A stretch of 64,000 nucleotides of DNA from a candidate division WWE3 bacterium RIFOXYC1_FULL_40_10 (GTDB lineage Bacteria; Patescibacteriota; WWE3; UBA101185; UBA10185). A program made the position numbers and the translations under genes. The stretch is taken from assembly GCA_001773215.1 (NCBI GenBank), contig MEWB01000001.1:395052-459051 (forward strand), written 5' to 3'. The notes under the pieces are model-generated. The model worked only from the letters and a program-made list of their open reading frames with translations, did not search any database and was not told the origin of the DNA. This document shows positions 20,715 through 60,155 of this stretch, in pieces (position 1 is the stretch's first letter; each line of letters opens with the position of its first letter).

Positions 20715-22213
20715 AAGCAATAATTTATTGTAGGGTATCTACACAGGAACAAGTTAATGAGGGCAACAGTCTTTTAACACAAGAAAGGCTTTGTAGGCAG
20801 TATGGAAAAAATAATGGCTACGAGATTGACAAGGTTTTCGTTGAGGAAGGTGAAAGTGCTAAAACCATATACAGAACATCCCTCAAGAACATGATGAAAT
20901 ATTGTACTTTAACGGAAGGTAAAATTGATGCTGTGTTGATTTATAGAATTGATAGGCTTTCAAGAGAAACTGCAGACTATATAGCCTTAAAGGTTTTTTT
21001 TAATAAATTAGGGATTAAAGTGATATCTACCAGCGAACCAATTGAAGATACACCTACAGGTAGGTTTTTAGAAACTGTTCTCGCAAGTAGTGCTCAAATG
21101 GATAATGAGATAAGAGGAGAACGAAGTAAAAACGGTATGATAGACCGTCTAAAACAAGGAAGATGGATGTTTTATGCACCTTTAGGTTATAGGACAGAGG
21201 GAGCAAAAGGTGCCTCAAATATAGAACCTGTAGAACCCATAGCAGGTTATATAAACAGGGTTTTTATGGCACTATCCTCTGGGTATATAACGGTAGAAGA
21301 GGTGCGAAGGGACTCCGCAAAATGGGGACTTGTAACAAACAGAGGTAAAGCACTTAGCATTTCAATGTTTCATAAAATGATTAGAAACCCGATTTATAAG
21401 GGGTACTTAGATGTCCCTAGCATGGGGATTTATCAAAAAGGCAGTTTTAAGGCTATTGTAGATGAAAAAGTATTTGACCAAGTTCAGTATATTTTAGAAA
21501 GCAAAAAGAAGAAAATGCCTATATATAGAAAATTAAACCCTGACTTTCCTTTAAGGGGTGCATTGAAATGTAGCAAATGTGGAAAATTACTAACAGCGAG
21601 TTGGGCAAAGCAAAGAACCATAGGTCACTACAGGTGTTCAGTATGTACCAATGTGAACCTAAACAAAAAGGTTTTGGAAAATACATTTAGTGAATACCTT
21701 AAGTCAATAGTTTGGAACCAAATAACAGTTGAAGTTGTAAAAGAAGCATTGTTATTAAATTGGCAATCGCACAAAAAAGAATACGAAAAAGAACTAGCTA
21801 AAATTGCGAAGCAACAAATTGAAATAAGAGAGTTAATGGATAAAGTTGTTGATAAAAACATGAGGGGTGTTTACAGTGACTCGCTAGCAAAAACTAAACT
21901 AAATGATTATGAAAGGAACCTCGCCGAATTGCGTTTAGAGACCCAGAAATATGCTTCTCCAGATGTTATGGAGGCAGATTTACTTAACTACAGCGTTGAC
22001 TTCATGCGTAATATAACTGGTATGTGGGATAAATTGGATATAGAACCAAAGCATAGGTTGCATAAAATGTTATTTCCTGATGGTATCGTTTATTTGAATG
22101 GGATATTTACAACCCCTGTTAAATCCTGTCTTATAGAGCTAAACGATCTAGTATGTGTTGAAAATTCTACTATGGTGACCCCACGGAGAATCGAACTCCG
22201 GTTGCCGGGATGA
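20711..22213 (+). CDS. large serine recombinase (resolvase-domain integrase)
   Basis: N-terminal catalytic context IIYCRVSTQEQ and resolvase-domain motifs (LIYRIDRLSR, SAQMDNEIRGERSKNG). Downstream recombinase domain and zinc ribbon CSKCGKLL..YRCSVC. The last 13 codons are encoded within the tRNA-Glu sequence. Confidence 0.9.
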   Translation: MKAIIYCRVSTQEQVNEGNSLLTQERLCRQYGKNNGYEIDKVFVEEGESAKTIYRTSLKNMMKYCTLTEGKIDAVLIYRIDRLSRETADYIALKVFFNKLGIKVISTSEPIEDTPTGRFLETVLASSAQMDNEIRGERSKNGMIDRLKQGRWMFYAPLGYRTEGAKGASNIEPVEPIAGYINRVFMALSSGYITVEEVRRDSAKWGLVTNRGKALSISMFHKMIRNPIYKGYLDVPSMGIYQKGSFKAIVDEKVFDQVQYILESKKKKMPIYRKLNPDFPLRGALKCSKCGKLLTASWAKQRTIGHYRCSVCTNVNLNKKVLENTFSEYLKSIVWNQITVEVVKEALLLNWQSHKKEYEKELAKIAKQQIEIRELMDKVVDKNMRGVYSDSLAKTKLNDYERNLAELRLETQKYASPDVMEADLLNYSVDFMRNITGMWDKLDIEPKHRLHKMLFPDGIVYLNGIFTTPVKSCLIELNDLVCVENSTMVTPRRIELRLPG

Positions 22214-22247
22214 AAACCCGGCGTCCTAACCGTTAGACGATGGGGCC
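22173..22247 (-). tRNA. tRNA-Glu (anticodon TTC)
   Basis: Minus-strand GGCCCCATCGTCTAACGGTTAGGACGCCGGGTTTTCATCCCGGCAACCGGAGTTCGATTCTCCGTGGGGTCACCA. Acceptor 7 bp with one G-U pair, anticodon loop TTTTCAT, TTCGATT T-loop, CCA encoded. Confidence 0.9.
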
Positions 22248-27660: not shown

Positions 27661-29559
27661 TTATATTTTAAGAAACCAAGGCCAAACCCTCACGTTGAAC
27701 CAGTCTAAAACAGGCGAGGATGCAACCATGCCGGTTGTCAGAGAATAATGCATATACCACGAAAACGTAACAAGAGCTAAAAACAATATAAGTTGAACAA
27801 CACTTGTTATTTTTGCAAAGTCATTTTTAAGCAGCCTATCAACATAAAATGCCAGTGGCATAAATAGTAAAACCACACTATCAAGCAGGTACCTATAGTC
27901 ATGTGAACCGCCCCCGAAGGAGCTTGTAGTAAACGTTAAAAAAGCGCTGGATGCTACAAATATAAAGACAATAAGAGATGCAATATTATAATATTGCCGT
28001 CTCATAAAATAGAAGCCGACTAGGGAAAATAGTAGGTAGGGCGCCATATATAATACCCCATATACCTCCTGGCTAGATAAGTAAGTTGTGCCGCCGGCCA
28101 CAGAATCGGGAAATACTGTTCCTCCAAAGAAAAGCACTATCGTGTTAAATAGGTGATTCTTAGTAAAGATAGAACTCTCGGATAAAAACATTGGATAGTC
28201 TTTGTAGTACTTAAAAGCTGTCGCGAAAGGGGATCCAAAAGCACTGTAATTAAACACTAATATAAATAGCAAAAAGGGTAACATACCAAAACCAACAGGC
28301 ATAATGTATCTAAATCGTTTTTTAAAGTGACTGACCAACTCTCGTGGTGACAACAAAGATAAAAGAACTAAGAAAACATAGAATAGATTTCGATACTCTG
28401 TAACTAATATCGCACCCAAAACAATTCCCAGTAACAACCTGATTTTTAAGGAATCTAACCGTTTTAGCTTTACCGCTAAAAACAGATAGGTTGCAACAAG
28501 CATAAGCATAATCGAGAAAGCATGGACGAATACCACGGTGCTGTACCTCCAAATTAGCGTGCCAAACGCCATGATAAGCGCTGTTAAGAAACCCGCTCCG
28601 CGAGATACTCCCAGTAGTCTTGTTAGTATCATATTCAGAAGCGACACCGATAAACCCGCTGATATTAGAGAAAGAAGGGATGAGAATCTGATAGGCACTT
28701 CTCTCCCTAGGTACCTGTAAATTCCTTCGTTAGCAGGAACATCCGTGCTGCTAAATATTTTTAAATAAGGAGTTTTATCTGCTTTAGCCCAAACATCCGT
28801 TAAACTATTCCTTGAAATCGCATTTTCGGTATCCCCCGCTCCAAGTAAGTAATAGTATCCTGTGGGTGAAACAACCTTGTTAGTTGGACCAACTAAAACC
28901 CAATACTTTTTATTAATATCAAGGTTACCTTTATATTCAAAGGTAATCTCAGATGCAAACTGCTTTAGCTGTTGAGAATATATAATTCTGCTCTGCCCAA
29001 CTGTTCCATCTCCCGGAATCCCCTTAACATCTTCCGCCACTGAGACATACAAATTATTCACGGGTTCTCCCATTTTCCCGATTCGCATTGTTATTTTTTC
29101 AATAGTGCTTGATTTGGGTTGAAACCTCCACGCATAAGTGTGCAAACTTTCTGGAGATTGCATGTCGATCCTGGTGTTAAAACCTGCCTGTAACGCCATA
29201 ATCCTATTGTTAGGAATCGCGACTAGTTTAGTATAAATTTCTCCTAAAGCATAAAAAGGGATTGCAGCTATAGACACTCCCATGGATTTATTTGAGTACT
29301 GTTTATCGCCAACTTTTGCAACATCACCCTCGGTACAAATTCGGTTTTGAGATATGTCAAAGGTTTGGTTCAAATAAAGAGATCGTGTTTCGCTCAAAAT
29401 AGCACCATCATTTGTCGATGCTAAATTCTCACAATCAAGGTGCCCCGTGGGCCAGCGAAATTTCCAATAAACAAAAGTAGAGAACAAAAACAATAGCAAT
29501 TCGACTTTGTTGGTGGAAACAAATGTTAAAAGGCCAAGGGCCAGCTTTTTAAAGCTCAT
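27661..29559 (-). CDS. large membrane protein: N-terminal extracytoplasmic domain + C-terminal polytopic domain
   Basis: 632 aa. N-terminal TM, about 270 aa soluble, then at least 9 hydrophobic helices. 4-bp overlap with the upstream oxidoreductase gene. Confidence 0.55.
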   Translation of the reverse strand: MSFKKLALGLLTFVSTNKVELLLFLFSTFVYWKFRWPTGHLDCENLASTNDGAILSETRSLYLNQTFDISQNRICTEGDVAKVGDKQYSNKSMGVSIAAIPFYALGEIYTKLVAIPNNRIMALQAGFNTRIDMQSPESLHTYAWRFQPKSSTIEKITMRIGKMGEPVNNLYVSVAEDVKGIPGDGTVGQSRIIYSQQLKQFASEITFEYKGNLDINKKYWVLVGPTNKVVSPTGYYYLLGAGDTENAISRNSLTDVWAKADKTPYLKIFSSTDVPANEGIYRYLGREVPIRFSSLLSLISAGLSVSLLNMILTRLLGVSRGAGFLTALIMAFGTLIWRYSTVVFVHAFSIMLMLVATYLFLAVKLKRLDSLKIRLLLGIVLGAILVTEYRNLFYVFLVLLSLLSPRELVSHFKKRFRYIMPVGFGMLPFLLFILVFNYSAFGSPFATAFKYYKDYPMFLSESSIFTKNHLFNTIVLFFGGTVFPDSVAGGTTYLSSQEVYGVLYMAPYLLFSLVGFYFMRRQYYNIASLIVFIFVASSAFLTFTTSSFGGGSHDYRYLLDSVVLLFMPLAFYVDRLLKNDFAKITSVVQLILFLALVTFSWYMHYSLTTGMVASSPVLDWFNVRVWPWFLKI

Positions 29560-30980
29560 ATATTGTTATTTTGTTTGGCAAGCCCGGTTTCATCCTCCTG
29601 ATATTCATCGTCAGTATTAACTTCCCACAAGTTATGATTTTTGTTATCAGCAATATTTTCGGCTGCCAAAATTCCCATGTATATACTGTGATCCTGGTTA
29701 TTGTATTTAAAAGCCCCGCCCCTACCGATTACAGTTAAGTTTTCTAAGCTATTTAAATAACTCTCTATTGGGGACAGATAATCTTTGTATCCGGGCTCAT
29801 ATATTGGGTAGCATTTGGGAATGCGCAACACATGCCCTTGCGTTATCTCACAATTGCCCGTCAACCCCAACGCTTCAATTTCTTCGATCGCCTTGTTTAT
29901 AATATACGATGTATCGTCCGACTTCCACAATACATCATTATCATGGAACCAATACTCCAGTGCCAATACCGAGTACTTATTTTGATCTCCATATAACTCA
30001 GGTATCCAGTTTCTAAAATTCGTTATTCTGCCAACCAAAACATCAGGCGCATGGATATATAACCATTGATCTGGAAATAATTCGTGATGCGGAACGTTTA
30101 AATATACTATCAGTGTGTTTCTAAATTTCAATTTTTTAACGTTTTCCTCAACCTGGCTTGGAAGGTTTGGCAAATTCTCAACTAAAGTAGTGAGAGGCAT
30201 TGTAGATATAACGTGATCATACTTAACTTGCTGTCCATCAGGGAGTTCTATACCACAAACAGCGTTGCCTTCTACTAGTACTTTACGGATGGGACGGGAA
30301 GTATAAACGTTGCCACCAAGTTCCTTAATACGATCAGCCATTTTCGAATAAACATAACCCGTTCCCTTTAGTGGGTAAGCAAACTTTTCTACTAGTGTAG
30401 CGTGATCCGTTTTAATAAACACACTTTTCATGGCCTCGGTTAGTGAAAATTTCTTAATTCTTTGCTTTGCAAAATCGGCGTCGAGTTCGTGACACTTGAT
30501 ACCCCAAAGTTTCTCGGAATAGGTTTTAAAAAAGTGGTGATATAGTCGCTTGCCAAACCTTGAAATGACCCAGGTTTCAAATGTTCCTTTATCTGGGGTT
30601 GGAGATAGTTTTTCTTTAAGATAACTTAGTACACACAAAGCAGTTTCGAGTATTCCCAGGTTACTTAGCGCGTTGAAAGGTTTTAGGGGATAGTTATAAA
30701 ATTTATTGCGGTAGTTAATTCTGGTTAATCTATTTACAAACTTGTATTCGTCTTTTACAACTTCTAGCCACAACTCATTCACTCGCCTATTTTTGGAGAA
30801 GAATCTGTGCGGACCAGTATCAACCGTGGTACCCCATAAGTTTAAGCTCTTACACATGCCGCCTACAGTGTCATCCGCTTCATATACATCTACCAAATAG
30901 GCCTTTTTAGCCAGCTCATATCCAGCGGATAAACCTGCCGGACCGGCACCTATTATTGCTATCTTTTTACTATTGGACAT
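29556..30980 (-). CDS. FAD/NAD(P)-binding oxidoreductase (amine-oxidase / UDP-galactopyranose-mutase-like)
   Basis: Rossmann dinucleotide motif KIAIIGAGPAGLSAGYEL..VDVYEADDTVGG. Confidence 0.65.
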   Translation of the reverse strand: MSNSKKIAIIGAGPAGLSAGYELAKKAYLVDVYEADDTVGGMCKSLNLWGTTVDTGPHRFFSKNRRVNELWLEVVKDEYKFVNRLTRINYRNKFYNYPLKPFNALSNLGILETALCVLSYLKEKLSPTPDKGTFETWVISRFGKRLYHHFFKTYSEKLWGIKCHELDADFAKQRIKKFSLTEAMKSVFIKTDHATLVEKFAYPLKGTGYVYSKMADRIKELGGNVYTSRPIRKVLVEGNAVCGIELPDGQQVKYDHVISTMPLTTLVENLPNLPSQVEENVKKLKFRNTLIVYLNVPHHELFPDQWLYIHAPDVLVGRITNFRNWIPELYGDQNKYSVLALEYWFHDNDVLWKSDDTSYIINKAIEEIEALGLTGNCEITQGHVLRIPKCYPIYEPGYKDYLSPIESYLNSLENLTVIGRGGAFKYNNQDHSIYMGILAAENIADNKNHNLWEVNTDDEYQEDETGLAKQNNNI

Positions 30981-31050
30981 GCCTCAGCATGATACACTAT
31001 TAGAAATGGTGGTACTATAGCCTTTGGCGTTGTATAATTTCAAGGTTTGT

Positions 31051-31107
31051 TGAGGGGACGTAGCTCAGTGGTAGACCTGCCTGCCGGCAGGCAGGGCAGC
31101 GGCTAAG
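31051..31107 (+). repeat. truncated 5' copy of tRNA-Lys interrupted by a 20-bp palindrome
   Basis: TGAGGGGACGTAGCTCAGTGGTAGA (25 nt) is identical to 31352-31376. After the palindrome, GCAGCGGC matches the anticodon-stem 5' strand of the intact gene; then the sequences diverge. Confidence 0.7.
31076..31095. repeat. perfect 20-bp palindrome CCTGCCTGCCGGCAGGCAGG
   Basis: Read directly; self-complementary. It is absent from the intact tRNA-Lys copy. Confidence 0.85.
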
Positions 31108-31114
31108 TAGTAGT

Positions 31115-31354
31115 ATGTATTTTGTATACGTATTAAAAAATGCCAAAGGTGTACTATACAAGGGACTGACGAGAGACCCGCTGACACGTTTGGAGCAACA
31201 TAACAAGAGCAGAAATAGGAGTACAAAAGGGAAGGGTGTTTGGGAACTTGTACTCATTGAAAATTATAATACACGCGCTGAAGCCAGGAAGCGCGAGAAG
31301 TATCTTAAGAGCGGATCTGGAAGGGAAATGCTTCGCAGGATATTGCATCTATGA
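31115..31354 (+). CDS. GIY-YIG nuclease-domain mini-protein (UPF0213/YhbQ-like)
   Basis: MYFVYVLKNAKGVLYKGLTRDPLTRLEQHN..WELVLIENYNTRAEARKREKYLK matches the GIY-YIG catalytic core. The stop TGA abuts the tRNA-Lys 5' end. Confidence 0.8.
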   Translation: MYFVYVLKNAKGVLYKGLTRDPLTRLEQHNKSRNRSTKGKGVWELVLIENYNTRAEARKREKYLKSGSGREMLRRILHL

Positions 31355-31429
31355 GGGGACGTAGCTCAGTGGTAGAGCAGCGGCCTTTTAAGCCGTTTGT
31401 CGTGGGTTCGAACCCCACCGTCCTCACCA
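31355..31429 (+). tRNA. tRNA-Lys (anticodon TTT)
   Basis: GGGGACGTAGCTCAGTGGTAGAGCAGCGGCCTTTTAAGCCGTTTGTCGTGGGTTCGAACCCCACCGTCCTCACCA. Anticodon loop CTTTTAA, CCA encoded. Confidence 0.9.
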
Positions 31430-31548
31430 TAATACCCCCTGGCCTTCCAGGATGACTTCTAACATGCGGTTATGACTATAGGTTGACATAAATACCCACA
31501 AATCGTATAATATCCATCAAACTACATTCAAATGAGAGGAGTTATGAG

Positions 31549-31845
31549 ATGTATAAGTTGAGAGTTATAGACTGGCATGACGAGGCGGATCGCGCTGATT
31601 ATTGGGACCCCGCTTTCAATGGAGCACCTGGAAATACGATAGGCTTTCTACACGAAGAGCTCTGTTCTGATCCTCATACAGTGATCCAGCGCATCAGCGA
31701 ATGTACAGCTTACCACCCACCTGCTTTAGAAGAGATTGAGAAACTCGGTGTTGGGGACTTCTATAAAAAAGAGCTATATAACGACCATGAAGACGGATGC
31801 TGGGGTAGTATCCCTGAGGGATACTTAGTATTTAGAGTGCCATAG
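31549..31845 (+). CDS. hypothetical protein (98 aa)
   Basis: SD AGAGGAGTTATGAGATG. G+C-richer segment. Confidence 0.45.
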   Translation: MYKLRVIDWHDEADRADYWDPAFNGAPGNTIGFLHEELCSDPHTVIQRISECTAYHPPALEEIEKLGVGDFYKKELYNDHEDGCWGSIPEGYLVFRVP

Positions 31846-31936
31846 TCAGTGTATCGACAGGAGTGGTCCCATACTCCCATGCTCTGCATAGTGTTTTTAG
31901 TGTACAATCATGCAAAATCGATAATACGGAGGCTAA

Positions 31937-32339
31937 GATGAAGCAATTGCGAATTTTTTTGTCCATGATCGCTCTGATTACCATTGGAGTTGCTTGCTTC
32001 TACCTGGGCAAACATAGCGTTCACACCTATGAGTTTGTCCGAGAGGAAGAAGTAAACAATACTCGTTACATCTTCATAAAGGAACCTGTCAGTGGTAAAG
32101 CTGTAGTCGATCGTGATGGCTATCTGGCAACAGGCTTCATTTCGCTCGATACGGTTCGGCTCAATGAAAAAGGCCAGCTAGTAATGACGGACAAGAGTCT
32201 TTTAGTAGTTACATGCCCAAATGGTGAGGCTGTTGTGTCAGCTACAGGGTACGACCCACAGTCCTCCCTAATAGCTTGTGGTAGCATAAAAGACTTAATT
32301 ACTAATTCGGAAGGTGTCTTGAGAATTTACAAAAAATAA
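31937..32339 (+). CDS. membrane-anchored hypothetical protein
   Basis: Track ORF starts at 31863. The internal ATG at 31937 has an SD (ACGGAGGCTAAGATG) and a signal/TM MKQLRIFLSMIALITIGVACF. Confidence 0.45.
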
Positions 32340-59259: not shown

Positions 59260-59386
59260 AATGATTGACTGCTCGTGAAAGGCGATCTCTGTGGCTAAGA
59301 TGGATCACAAACTAGTATGATACCATCAGTTCTCTAAAAGTAAGATACCCTCATCACAGAAATCATTTGGTAGCAGTAGTATGTCA
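59260..59386 (+). repeat. copy A of a ~105-125 bp structured direct repeat
   Basis: Shares aatgatt..ATCTCTG(T/C)GGCTAAG(A/G)TGGATCACAA..CCATCAG.TC.CTAAAAAG..TCACAG.AGA.ATCATT.GGTA..TAGTAT.TCA with 61120-61225. Confidence 0.6.
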
Positions 59387-59420
59387 ATTTGTCTCGCCTT
59401 TTTCTCCCCAAAGTTATAAA

Positions 59421-60155
59421 ATGTTAGTACATATGTGGACTAAGCATGACATTATTAAAGAGCTTCAAAGGTACGCTAAAGAGATTGGCAAAACTCCAAG
59501 CCAAAAAATATTTTTCGACAATACCGAGGTTGGAATATATGATCGAATGAGGTTTTGGCCTAACTATGGTGCACTTGTGCGTGAGGCTGGATTAACCCCT
59601 AACGAGTTTGATAAAACCAAATACAATCATGATCAACTATGTAGACTGTTTATTCGTGTTGTTCGTGAAGAAGGCAAATGGCCAACAAGAGGCATTTTAG
59701 ATGTTAAACATCATGCAGATCATAGTTTTCCAGACTCATCTACGTTTTACAAGAAACTTGGTTTGACTGGTGAATTAGCAAAAACTATCTTAATATTTGT
59801 CAATGAAAAACGTGGATACAGGGACATCATTGATACTTGCAATTCAGTGATTAAGGAATACGAAGATAGCAGTTTATTCTCAGAAGGTGATGTAGTTCCA
59901 GGTTATGTATATTTAGGTAAACAGAACGGAAAATATAAGATAGGCAAATCAAAAGACCCTGATCGTCGTAGAGAAGATATTACACTTTTAGGCCCTGAGC
60001 CTTTCGAACTAATACATGTGATAAAAACAGATGACATGAACGGTATTGAAAAATATTGGCATGAAAGATTTAAATCAAAACACAAAAGAGCTGAATGGTT
60101 TAGCCTATCCAGAACTGACATCAGCGATTTCAAGCAATGGAAGAAAATCGCTTAA
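59421..60155 (+). CDS. T5orf172 / GIY-YIG-like domain protein
   Basis: C-terminal GYVYLGKQNGKYKIGKSKDPDRRREDI..ELIHVIKTDD..IEKYWHERFKSKHKRAEWFSLSRTDI matches the T5orf172 pattern. Track ORF starts at 59367, inside the repeat; 59421 (MLVHMW) is preferred. Confidence 0.6.
   Translation: MLVHMWTKHDIIKELQRYAKEIGKTPSQKIFFDNTEVGIYDRMRFWPNYGALVREAGLTPNEFDKTKYNHDQLCRLFIRVVREEGKWPTRGILDVKHHADHSFPDSSTFYKKLGLTGELAKTILIFVNEKRGYRDIIDTCNSVIKEYEDSSLFSEGDVVPGYVYLGKQNGKYKIGKSKDPDRRREDITLLGPEPFELIHVIKTDDMNGIEKYWHERFKSKHKRAEWFSLSRTDISDFKQWKKIA

What the first reader, a model, noticed from the sequence alone, without database searches (positions are those of the whole stretch)
31051..31429. tRNA-Lys locus: GIY-YIG mini-nuclease ORF nested between a truncated, palindrome-interrupted 5' tRNA copy and the intact gene
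25 nt (TGAGGGGACGTAGCTCAGTGGTAGA) occur twice 301 bp apart. The upstream copy continues into a perfect 20-bp palindrome (CCTGCCTGCCGGCAGGCAGG), then 8 more tRNA nucleotides (GCAGCGGC, the anticodon-stem 5' strand), then diverges into an ORF encoding a textbook GIY-YIG core (YFVYVL..GVLYKG.T.D...R...HN..W.LV..E..). The ORF's stop (TGA) is the three bases immediately before the 5' end of the intact tRNA-Lys.

This looks like a nuclease gene that inserted into, or duplicated, the tRNA 5' half. It resembles a freestanding homing-endonuclease-like event or an intron/integration remnant. The palindrome is a possible cleavage or recombination site.
Basis: seen in the sequence. Interest (0 to 1): 0.65.

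Follow-up and report, generated by a model that had tools for sequence, protein, structure and literature searches.

The report
Tiny nuclease element inside tRNA gene
A 301-bp cassette (a 20-bp palindrome plus a 79-residue Slx1-like GIY-YIG nuclease gene) sits between a broken 5' copy and the intact copy of a tRNA-Lys gene, and the same design recurs next to many different tRNAs in several bacterial phyla, so it looks like one member of a widespread, apparently undescribed kind of very small selfish DNA element.

Summary
The locus is one copy of a recurring module. In 80 related loci from CPR/Patescibacteria, Bacteroidota, Nitrospirota and Ignavibacteriota, 61 of 86 homologous ORFs lie directly upstream of a same-strand tRNA. 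At least 16 anticodon types are involved and none is on the opposite strand.

Most loci also carry a stub of that same tRNA, interrupted by the same palindrome, CCTGCCTGCCGGCAGGCAGG. The palindrome is inserted precisely, without target duplication, mostly at stem/loop boundaries. A mirror form also exists: tRNA, then ORF, then a 3' stub with the palindrome.

The protein belongs to the UPF0213/Slx1 branch of GIY-YIG nucleases, not the I-TevI type. Evidence for mobility comes from the family:
- ORFs are 95–99% identical where flanks are 73–94% identical.
- Some loci hold tandem arrays or ORF-deleted remnants.
- One orthologous tRNA-Arg locus has three intact units in one species and a ~65-nt scar in its sister species.

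No empty site could be tested for this WWE3 locus. My best reading is a homing-type selfish cassette expressed as the tRNA's leader, with the palindrome as its cis site. The mechanism is inferred, not shown. The palindrome also occurs alone in other genomes, which remains unexplained. I found no description of this module in the searchable literature.

The parts
31034..31039 (+). TATAAT hexamer, a candidate -10 box of the promoter that would drive stub, ORF and tRNA as one transcript
   Evidence: Read directly in the sequence. The two-hexamer scan did not call it because there is no good -35, so this part is an inference. In Bacteroidota relatives, the TAnnTTTG promoter motif lies within 60 nt upstream of the stub in 18 of 37 loci, and upstream of the intact tRNA in 1 of 37.
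31051..31075 (+). Upstream repeat copy: 3 leader nt (TGA) plus tRNA-Lys positions 1-22 (the outer part of the stub)
   Evidence: Identical over 25 nt to 31352-31376.
31076..31095 (.). Perfect 20-bp palindrome CCTGCCTGCCGGCAGGCAGG, inserted precisely between tRNA positions 22 and 23, with no target duplication and no deletion
   Evidence: The exact same 20-mer lies within 150 nt of 46 of 86 family ORFs. Of 53 precisely mapped palindromic insertions in tRNA stubs, 42 are exactly 20 nt.
31096..31103 (+). Inner part of the stub: tRNA-Lys positions 23-30 (GCAGCGGC)
   Evidence: Matches 31377-31384 of the intact tRNA.
31115..31354 (+). 79-aa GIY-YIG nuclease gene of the UPF0213/Slx1-like branch; its TGA stop abuts the tRNA
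   Evidence: Pfam PF01541, 7.6e-14. Y5, Y15, R25 and H29 are invariant and E49 is at least 90% conserved among 38 homologues. The family profile hits UPF0213 structures 1zg2 and 1ywl, then SLX1. The AF2 model has pLDDT 90.6 and its Foldseek best hits are 1zg2 and Slx1.
31355..31429 (+). Intact tRNA-Lys(UUU) with encoded CCA; it has no room for a promoter of its own
   Evidence: ARAGORN; Rfam RF00005 at 75.5 bits.

Best explanation
The region 31054-31354 holds one copy of a very small selfish element that lives inside tRNA transcription units. The 301-bp repeat unit is stub 1-22, the 20-bp palindrome, stub 23-30 and a 79-aa Slx1/UPF0213-type GIY-YIG nuclease gene.

Shown by sequence and comparison:
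- The ORF is always co-oriented with, and usually abuts, an intact tRNA.
- The other side of the ORF carries a partial copy of that same tRNA, so the tRNA stays functional despite the insertion.
- This stub is interrupted by a nearly invariant palindrome.
- Units multiply in tandem, lose their ORF, are exchanged between related genomes, and are patchily spread across phyla.

Inferred:
1. The cassette is transcribed from the tRNA's own promoter as the leader of the pre-tRNA, and RNase P cleavage at tRNA +1 frees it. In the mirror class it is transcribed as a trailer.
2. The nuclease makes structure- or palindrome-directed breaks that trigger recombinational copying (homing) into the same tRNA gene of DNA that lacks the element. 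The conserved tRNA sequence on both sides serves as the homology arms. This would explain why protein clades keep to one tRNA type across phyla.
3. The palindrome is the element's cis site, most likely the hairpin or cruciform that a dimer of the domain-only nuclease binds or cuts. By splitting the direct repeat into pieces of about 22 nt or less, it also lowers loss of the element through repeat recombination.
For: Recurrence:
- 429 tblastn-confirmed relatives were found in species-representative genomes, and 80 were examined.
- 61 of 86 ORFs have a same-strand tRNA directly downstream, 8 have one upstream only, and 0 have one on the opposite strand.
- 16 anticodon types are involved: Arg x4, Leu x5, Lys, Phe, Asn, Met, Ala, Gly, Ile.

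Stub and palindrome:
- 71 of 86 ORFs have a palindrome-like sequence within 150 nt, and 46 have the exact 20-mer.
- 70 of 72 palindrome-like sequences in 362 kb of family loci lie within 200 nt of the ORF.
- Insertions are precise, and 37 of 53 lie at stem/loop boundaries.
- Variant palindromes follow protein clades, as in the Ala and Met clades.
- Translated palindrome occurs in the N- or C-terminal extensions of 17 of 150 top family representatives from an independent library.

Mobility and selfishness:
- L023 vs L036: ORF 95.1% identical, against 75.3% for the tRNA and 73.2% for the flanking gene.
- L055 vs L068: 99.2% against 93.8%.
- Tandem arrays and ORF-deleted units exist.
- One orthologous tRNA-Arg locus has three intact units in L011 but only a ~65-nt scar, without palindrome or ORF, in sister species L139.
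- Protein clades mix CPR, Bacteroidota, Ignavibacteriota and Nitrospirota while keeping the tRNA type.

Active enzyme:
- The catalytic residues are conserved.
- L023 vs L036 differ in 6 synonymous and 3 non-synonymous codons.
- The fold matches UPF0213 and Slx1.

Expression logic:
- TAnnTTTG lies upstream of the stub in 18 of 37 Bacteroidota loci, against 1 of 37 upstream of the intact tRNA.
- Here the stop codon abuts tRNA +1.

Precedent: T4 SegB is a freestanding GIY-YIG homing nuclease that sits among tRNA genes and recognises a conserved tRNA T-arm motif (PMC2330249).
Against: - No element-free allele of this WWE3 tRNA-Lys locus could be found or excluded. One search failed a positive control.
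- No nuclease activity or target is known for this family.
- The protein has no DNA-binding domain, so long-site recognition as in I-TevI or Seg enzymes is unlikely.
- If the tRNA gene is the target, the intact tRNA beside the gene should also be cut.
- In L029, L036 and L046 the stub does not match the adjacent tRNA. Between L046 and L059 the stub plus palindrome is 59/59 identical although the ORF is only 66.7% identical. A simple 'duplication at insertion, then neutral decay' does not predict this.
- The same 20-mer occurs alone, without any family ORF, at 40 of 42 sites in 35 stretches of viral-collection contigs, mostly 55-68% GC.
- No copies were found in the plasmid collection, and only two weak (38% identity) matches in the phage collection, so these collections show no obvious carrier.
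Confidence: 0.55

Rival explanations
1. Two unrelated parasites. The GIY-YIG cassette is a mobile or relict insertion in the tRNA gene. The palindrome is an independent miniature palindromic element, moved by some other machinery, that merely accumulates in the harmless tRNA stub.
For: - The exact 20-mer occurs solo at 40 of 42 sites in viral-collection contigs, with no family ORF by tblastn or hmmsearch, and in an AT-rich intergenic region of L025/L033.
- Some stubs carry two or nested palindromes of different ages (L017, L088, L058, L048, L023).
- The distance from the palindrome to the ORF-proximal end of the stub varies from 6 to about 40 nt.
Against: - In 362 kb of family loci, 70 of 72 palindrome-like sequences are within 200 nt of the ORF, although other hairpins and intergenic DNA are available.
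- The 20-mer is exact in 46 of 86 loci while the proteins are only 42-58% identical.
- Palindrome variants track protein clades.
- Stub plus palindrome is 100% conserved where everything around it has diverged.
Confidence: 0.2
2. A domesticated host function. The small Slx1-like nuclease is a housekeeping factor co-transcribed with tRNAs, for example to process hairpins or R-loops at highly transcribed tRNA genes, or to act on RNA. On this view the arrangement is a conserved operon rather than a mobile element.
For: - Co-orientation and adjacency to tRNAs are strict.
- The catalytic residues are conserved and selection is purifying.
- Stubs are often identical to the neighbouring tRNA.
- Earlier work noted a GIY-YIG fused to a TrmH tRNA methyltransferase and suggested an RNA-related role for prokaryotic Slx1-like proteins (PMC1564403).
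Against: - The partner tRNA differs from genome to genome, with 16 anticodon types.
- Occurrence is patchy: 429 relatives in a collection of 185,579 species genomes, although the scan used a single peptide pattern (RKREKYLK) and so undercounts the family.
- There are tandem arrays, ORF-deleted units, and a scar versus three copies at one orthologous locus.
- ORFs are far more similar than their flanks.
- Clades mix phyla.
Confidence: 0.12
3. The protein acts on its own transcript. The palindrome hairpin and stub are RNA elements (an mRNA end-protecting hairpin or a processing site), and the nuclease is an RNase that matures the stub-ORF-tRNA precursor.
For: - The palindrome is always on the side of the ORF away from the intact tRNA, 5' in one class and 3' in the mirror class. 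That is where a free mRNA end would need protection.
- A stable hairpin is predicted in the RNA.
Against: - GIY-YIG enzymes characterised so far are DNases (established knowledge).
- A generic stabilising hairpin would not need an invariant 20-nt sequence across phyla.
- Solo palindromes occur in unrelated contexts.
Confidence: 0.05
4. An ordinary att-type remnant of an integrase-mediated integration into the tRNA gene, or an assembly artefact.
For: Partial tRNA copies are commonly produced by integrative elements (PMC9897764).
Against: - Only 301 bp and one 79-aa ORF lie between the repeats, and there is no recombinase.
- The 5' part of the tRNA is duplicated here, not the usual 3' part.
- The same design recurs in hundreds of genomes.
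- The sequence is identical in more than 10 independent assemblies.
Confidence: 0.03

Closest known systems
Freestanding GIY-YIG homing endonuclease genes of T4-like phages, especially SegB in the T4 tRNA gene cluster
   Same: A GIY-YIG nuclease gene is inserted between or next to tRNA genes. SegB recognises a conserved tRNA T-arm motif in DNA and drives its own inheritance with flanking tRNA genes (PMC2330249). Like seg genes, the present ORFs are more conserved than their flanks and are patchily distributed.
   Different: Seg and I-TevI enzymes are 200-250 aa with a separate DNA-binding domain. This protein is a bare 79-aa catalytic domain of the Slx1/UPF0213 branch; I-TevI scores only E = 2.6e-3 against 3e-11 for UPF0213. 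The element is chromosomal in bacteria, and only two weak matches were found in the phage collection. It carries a partial duplication of the target tRNA and an invariant palindrome, neither of which is described for seg genes.
Mobile endonuclease ORFs of fungal mitochondria that insert into a gene and bring a replacement copy of the displaced gene end (for example Allomyces macrogynus atp6; recalled from my own knowledge, Paquin et al. 1994, not checked here)
   Same: A nuclease ORF is flanked by one intact and one displaced partial copy of the host gene, so that the gene stays functional. GC-rich palindromic clusters often accompany such ORFs in fungal mitochondrial DNA.
   Different: Those cases are protein-coding host genes in organelles, with larger endonucleases that carry DNA-binding regions. 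This case is a bacterial tRNA gene, with both 5' and 3' versions and one specific 20-bp palindrome.
Integrative elements that target tRNA genes (phage/ICE att sites)
   Same: [quoted passage not shown]
   Different: Those elements are kilobases long and encode tyrosine or serine recombinases, and they mostly duplicate the tRNA 3' part. This one is 301 bp, has no recombinase, mostly duplicates the 5' part, and has a palindrome inside the partial copy.
REP sequences with their RAYT transposases, and IS200/IS605 hairpin-dependent elements
   Same: A short GC-rich palindrome sits beside the gene of a small nuclease. Insertion is precise and makes no target-site duplication. Solo copies of the palindrome are dispersed in some genomes.
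   Different: The enzyme here is a hydrolytic GIY-YIG, not an HUH/Y1 transposase. Only one palindrome occurs in this 64-kb window. The palindrome sits inside a tRNA stub, and no trans-mobilisation has been shown.
Eukaryotic Slx1-Slx4 structure-specific endonuclease and bacterial UPF0213 proteins (BH0048, EF2693, E. coli YhbQ)
   Same: These are the closest sequence and fold relatives. They share the minimal GIY-YIG domain. Preference for branched or hairpin DNA is known for Slx1 (established knowledge).
   Different: There is no RING/zinc-finger domain and no Slx4 partner. The function of bacterial UPF0213 proteins is unknown. I found no published report of tRNA linkage or a palindrome for them.

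Membership tests
GIY-YIG nuclease superfamily (Pfam PF01541) | Profile match above the curated threshold | tested here: met
   52.2 bits against a cut-off of 22.6, E = 7.6e-14, residues 1-69.
GIY-YIG nuclease superfamily (Pfam PF01541) | Catalytic motif residues: Tyr of 'GIY', Tyr of 'YIG', Arg, His/Asn and Glu | tested here: met
   Y5, Y15, R25 and H29 are invariant, and G17, N30 and E49 are at least 90% conserved, in 38 homologues.
GIY-YIG nuclease superfamily (Pfam PF01541) | Beta-beta-alpha-beta-alpha core fold | tested here: met
   The AF2 model has pLDDT 90.6 with E2-8, E14-19, H22-30, E44-51 and H54-65. The best Foldseek hits are 1zg2 and Slx1, with TM 0.58-0.68.
UPF0213 / Slx1-like branch (as opposed to the I-TevI/Seg or UvrC branches) | Closest to UPF0213 and SLX1 by profile; domain-only architecture | tested here: met
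   1zg2 at 3.4e-11, 1ywl at 6e-10, SLX1 at 3e-6 to 5e-4, I-TevI at 2.6e-3. The protein is 79 aa with no other Pfam domain.
Eukaryotic-type Slx1 | C-terminal RING/zinc-finger domain and an Slx4 partner | tested here: not met
   The protein ends after the nuclease domain. A partner cannot be assessed.
Homing endonuclease gene (freestanding) | Nuclease gene lodged in or beside a conserved target gene | tested here: met
   The ORF abuts tRNA-Lys here, and 69 of 86 family ORFs abut a same-strand tRNA.
Homing endonuclease gene (freestanding) | Presence/absence polymorphism at the same site in relatives | tested here: inconclusive
   For this locus no relatives were available, and the metagenome scans were uninformative because one search failed its positive control. 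Elsewhere in the family, one orthologous tRNA-Arg locus has three units in one species and an ORF-less scar in its sister species. No virgin empty site was seen.
Homing endonuclease gene (freestanding) | Horizontal spread: element more similar than flanks, and phylogeny incongruent with hosts | tested here: met
   95.1% against 73.2%, and 99.2% against 93.8%. Protein clades mix phyla.
Homing endonuclease gene (freestanding) | Site-specific cleavage of the element-free allele, followed by gene conversion | not testable with these tools
   This needs biochemistry or genetic crosses.
Homing endonuclease gene (freestanding) | Extended DNA-binding region that reads a long target | tested here: not met
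   Only the 79-aa catalytic domain is present.
Integrase-type integrative element in a tRNA gene | Tyrosine or serine recombinase encoded between the direct tRNA repeats | tested here: not met
   The only sizeable ORF between the repeats is the GIY-YIG gene.
Group I (or II) intron in a tRNA gene | Ribozyme core, with the tRNA split into two exons | tested here: not met
   No intron family matched in the Rfam E-value scan of 30500-32000, and the downstream tRNA is complete.
REP/RAYT or IS200/IS605-like hairpin elements | HUH (Y1) transposase | tested here: not met
   The protein is a GIY-YIG.
REP/RAYT or IS200/IS605-like hairpin elements | Many dispersed copies of the palindrome in the genome that carries the nuclease gene | tested here: inconclusive
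   One copy occurs in this 64-kb window, and 2 of 72 lie away from the ORF in family loci. Multi-copy solo palindromes occur in other contigs that have no ORF in view. Whole genomes were not available.
Known anti-phage defence systems | Match to a PADLOC model | tested here: not met
   No hit.

The most novel reading that the evidence does not exclude
The 20-bp palindrome is itself the mobile DNA, which would make it the smallest mobile unit described. The domain-only Slx1-like GIY-YIG protein would be its nuclease. It would cut hairpin or cloverleaf DNA at stem/loop junctions, and the palindrome would be pasted in precisely. The stub-palindrome-ORF-tRNA module would then be the autonomous 'master copy' of a new hairpin-based mobile system. 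That system would be analogous to REP/RAYT but built on a hydrolytic nuclease, and it would give bacterial UPF0213 proteins their first function.
Probability: 0.2. Interest if true: 0.92.

Novelty: new variant of a known kind. Interest (0 to 1): 0.78.

Why it matters
Bacterial UPF0213/Slx1-like GIY-YIG proteins are a large family with no known function. A profile of this subfamily matches 6,938 clusters (at 50% identity) at E <= 1e-10.

This locus and its relatives give the family three things:
- a concrete genomic role, as a selfish cassette resident in tRNA genes;
- a defined candidate DNA substrate, an invariant 20-bp palindrome;
- a testable expression route, as the leader of a pre-tRNA.

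If confirmed, the roughly 300-bp unit would be among the smallest autonomous mobile elements known. It would show how an element can occupy an essential single-copy tRNA gene in streamlined CPR genomes without killing the host.

There is also a practical point for annotation. The module creates tRNA fragments and produces ORFs that gene callers extend into tRNA or palindrome sequence. The LPAGRQ, PACRQA and CLPAGR peptides seen in predicted proteins come from this.

Tried and rejected
1. Intron reading. An Rfam E-value scan found only the intact tRNA. Rejected.

2. Empty-site search for this locus.
- An exact pattern joining the upstream flank to an uninterrupted tRNA found nothing in metagenome contigs.
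- A control pattern taken from the intact tRNA also found nothing, although that sequence is known to be present in a JGI contig (L008).
- Both negatives are therefore uninformative.

3. Relatives through flanking genes.
- The upstream FAD-oxidoreductase has no homologue above 60% identity outside its own genome.
- All contigs that carry the downstream 98-aa gene also carry the element.

4. A 'fixed-distance cleavage from the palindrome' model. The distance from the palindrome to the stub end ranges from 6 to about 40 nt, and one disrupted copy (L072) is full length. Rejected.

5. Hairpin-loop targeting of solo palindromes in viral contigs.
- MFE-based classes are the same as for control positions.
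- The perfect-stem measure is not significant (p = 0.34).
- Inconclusive. The stem/loop-junction preference holds only for tRNA stubs, and those events are not all independent.

6. Phage or plasmid carriers. There were two weak Staphylococcus phage hits and no plasmid hit.

7. Defence-system or named-family assignment. There were no PADLOC or NCBIfam hits and only weak PHROG endonuclease hits.

8. Literature. Six full-text searches, including one for the palindrome sequence itself, found no description of the module. Subscription-only papers are not covered.

9. Identical protein P0007 in many samples. The element is always at the same tRNA-Asn, and only the DNA beyond the tRNA 3' end varies. 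This gives no evidence of recent transposition.
Full report
**1. The observation**

The window comes from a candidate division WWE3 (CPR/Patescibacteria) genome. The ORF product is 100% identical to a protein named from RIFOXYC1_FULL_40_10.

- The 25-nt string TGAGGGGACGTAGCTCAGTGGTAGA occurs at 31051-31075 and at 31352-31376.
- The upstream copy continues into the perfect palindrome CCTGCCTGCCGGCAGGCAGG (31076-31095). It is unique in the window even with three mismatches allowed, and none of 100 shuffles produced a match.
- Eight further tRNA nucleotides follow (31096-31103).
- A 79-aa ORF (31115-31354) is a clear GIY-YIG domain (Pfam 52.2 bits).
- Its TGA stop abuts tRNA-Lys(UUU) at 31355-31429.

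In tRNA coordinates the palindrome is inserted between positions 22 and 23, inside the D-stem 3' strand (GA|GC). There is no duplicated or lost base. The stub ends at the last base of the anticodon-stem 5' strand. The identical sequence appears in more than ten independent assemblies, so it is not an artefact.

**2. It is one member of a recurring module**

Homologues at 42-58% identity come from CPR phyla and Bacteroidota. Several predicted proteins have tails that are translated tRNA genes. One N-terminal extension spells the translated palindrome.

A scan of one genome per species found 429 confirmed relatives, and I examined 80 loci. Counting the window and tandem copies, there are 86 ORFs:

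- 61 have a same-strand tRNA starting at or just after the ORF end.
- 8 have a same-strand tRNA just upstream instead.
- None has an adjacent tRNA on the opposite strand.
- 16 anticodon types are involved.

In most loci the other side of the ORF holds a partial copy of that same tRNA, interrupted by a palindrome. 71 of 86 ORFs have a palindrome-like sequence within 150 nt, and 46 have the exact 20-mer.

A mirror class has the order intact tRNA, ORF, 3' stub with palindrome (L028, L062, L074, L076, L080, L087). For tRNA-Leu(CAA) the same palindrome position (32/33) is seen in both classes.

Among 53 insertions that could be mapped to the base:

- 42 are exactly 20 nt.
- None has a target duplication.
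- 37 lie at boundaries between stems and loops. 25 are at D-loop|D-stem-3' and 7 at anticodon-stem-5'|loop.
- These events are not all independent.

In 362 kb of family loci, 70 of 72 palindrome-like sequences lie within 200 nt of the ORF. An independent library confirms the scale of the family. The family profile matches 6,938 clusters (at 50% identity) at E <= 1e-10. Of the top 150 representatives, 17 carry the translated palindrome (LPAGRQ, PACRQA or CLPAGR) in an extension.

**3. The protein**

- Profile search of solved structures gives UPF0213 proteins BH0048 and EF2693 first, then SLX1. I-TevI is only marginal.
- The AF2 model is confident (pLDDT 90.6) and matches the same structures.
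- Catalytic residues are conserved.
- The closest ORF pair differs by 6 synonymous and 3 non-synonymous codons.

It is therefore a probably active, domain-only nuclease of the Slx1-like branch. It has no DNA-binding domain, no NCBIfam or PADLOC assignment, and only weak phage-family matches.

**4. Evidence that the module is mobile and dispensable**

a. Elements are more similar than their surroundings.
- L023 vs L036: ORF 95.1% nt, against 75.3% for the adjacent tRNA and 73.2% for the syntenic flanking gene.
- L055 vs L068: 99.2% against 93.8%.

b. Tandem arrays exist (L011, L016, L043, L048). So do units that have lost the ORF by internal deletion (L021, L029, L055).

c. An orthologous locus differs between sister species.
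- L011 has three intact units between a histidine-kinase gene and tRNA-Arg(ACG).
- L139 has a kinase that is 87% identical and the same promoter. There, a 17-nt stub remnant is joined to about 45 nt of ORF 3' end, followed by the intact tRNA. It has neither palindrome nor ORF.

d. Protein clades keep to a tRNA type (a Leu clade, an Arg clade, Ala, Met). Yet they mix CPR, Bacteroidota, Ignavibacteriota and Nitrospirota, and tRNA switches do occur. Lys appears twice, and Phe and Asn lie inside the Arg clade.

e. Between two closely related elements, an extra 43-nt palindromic insert is present in one and absent in the other.

**5. Expression logic (inferred)**

In Bacteroidota the TAnnTTTG promoter motif lies within 60 nt upstream of the stub in 18 of 37 loci. 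It lies upstream of the intact tRNA in only 1 of 37. That this motif is the Bacteroidota promoter consensus is my own knowledge.

In the window a TATAAT hexamer lies 15 nt before the stub, and there is no space for a promoter between the ORF and the tRNA. The tRNA must therefore be transcribed through the stub, palindrome and ORF, and then cut out by RNase P. On this view the ORF mRNA is the tRNA's leader.

**6. How it most likely works**

I favour a homing-type selfish cassette (confidence about 0.55).

- The nuclease makes a structure- or palindrome-directed break.
- Repair copies the cassette into the same tRNA gene of DNA that lacks it. The conserved tRNA sequence on both sides acts as the homology, which explains the fidelity to tRNA type across phyla.
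- The partial duplication keeps the tRNA intact.
- The palindrome is the element's cis site. It also breaks the direct repeat into short pieces, which should reduce loss by repeat recombination.

T4 SegB, a GIY-YIG homing nuclease that targets a tRNA T-arm motif, is the closest tested precedent.

**7. What does not fit**

- The same 20-mer occurs alone at 40 of 42 sites in 35 stretches of viral-collection contigs, mostly GC-rich, with no family ORF in view. One such site is inside the variable loop of a tRNA-Met-like gene.
- In L029, L036 and L046 the stub is not derived from the adjacent tRNA. Between L046 and L059 the stub plus palindrome is 59/59 identical, while the ORF (66.7%), the flanking gene (70.2%) and even the tRNA (89.3%) have diverged. 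This suggests either constraint on the stub or separate transfer of it.
- The intact tRNA beside the nuclease gene should be a target too.
- No empty allele could be examined for this locus.

These points keep three rivals alive: the 'two parasites' reading (0.2), a domesticated function (0.12), and an RNA-level role (0.05).

**8. Novelty**

Six full-text searches, including one for the palindrome itself, found no description of this module. A 2026 survey of tRNA introns in Patescibacteria does not mention it. A paper on prokaryotic tRNA gene fragments attributes them to integrases and CRISPR.

I class it as a new variant of a known kind. It is a freestanding nuclease element with a host-gene duplication, and it carries an unusual, possibly independent, palindromic component. 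The more radical reading is that the palindrome is itself the mobile unit of a new hairpin-based system. I give that about 0.2.

Noticed in passing
window 59367-60155 (+): A 262-aa ORF whose C-terminal part has a T5orf172/GIY-YIG-like motif (GYVYLGK...KIGKS...EKYWHERF). It gave a weak tblastn hit to the family. It is a second, unrelated GIY-YIG-like gene in the window.
   Followed up: no
window 29556-30980 (-): The FAD-dependent oxidoreductase next to the element has no homologue above 60% identity outside its own genome. Its best hits are from Spirochaetes and Bacteroidota rather than CPR, which suggests horizontal acquisition of this neighbourhood.
   Followed up: partly
window about 21115-22213, beside tRNA-Glu 22173-22247 (-): A large serine recombinase (Resolvase, Recombinase and Zn_ribbon_recom domains; L001 1-1099) lies next to a tRNA gene. 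The roughly 9 kb between it and the tRNA-Lys locus may be an integrated island.
   Followed up: no
L008 versus window, about 31449 onward: The only difference between the JGI contig and the window across 1.4 kb is a 19-nt deletion just downstream of tRNA-Lys.
   Followed up: partly
window 31389 (L004-L007, L009, L010): All Logan contigs that carry the ORF end at the same base, inside the anticodon loop of tRNA-Lys. This implies a graph branch there, meaning another sequence in those samples shares the tRNA 5' half.
   Followed up: no
L091-L125 (viral-collection contigs): The exact 20-bp palindrome occurs 42 times in 35 stretches of contig, mostly 55-68% GC. It is often flanked by short direct repeats (cacagaga|PAL|cacagaga; ttgcgga|PAL|ttgcgga) or nested in older palindromes. 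One contig holds 6 copies in 29 kb.
   Followed up: partly
L115 2240-2330 and L092 about 8616: A tRNA-Met-like gene carries the palindrome in its variable loop, and ARAGORN still calls it a tRNA. It may be a tolerated insertion that mimics a long variable arm.
   Followed up: no
L129-L138 (protein P0007): A CPR tRNA-Asn locus has the palindrome at the same GA|GC position as in the window. The DNA beyond the tRNA 3' end differs between samples, and a TrwB-like coupling-protein gene lies upstream. This is an integration hot spot unrelated to the cassette.
   Followed up: partly
L139 1305-1450: After the intact tRNA-Arg there is a ~125-nt insert, followed by a 15-nt repeat of the tRNA 3' end (TTCCTCCGGGTTCAC). 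This is a separate att-like event at the same tRNA.
   Followed up: no
window 31111-31139: An imperfect palindrome overlaps the ORF start codon, and the predicted RNA fold pairs it into a hairpin that sequesters the AUG. It could affect translation.
   Followed up: no
tool behaviour (metagenome contigs): An exact 38-mer from the intact tRNA-Lys was not found in metagenome contigs, although it is present in JGI contig Ga0208953_1007894. Negative results from that collection should not be read as absence.
   Followed up: yes
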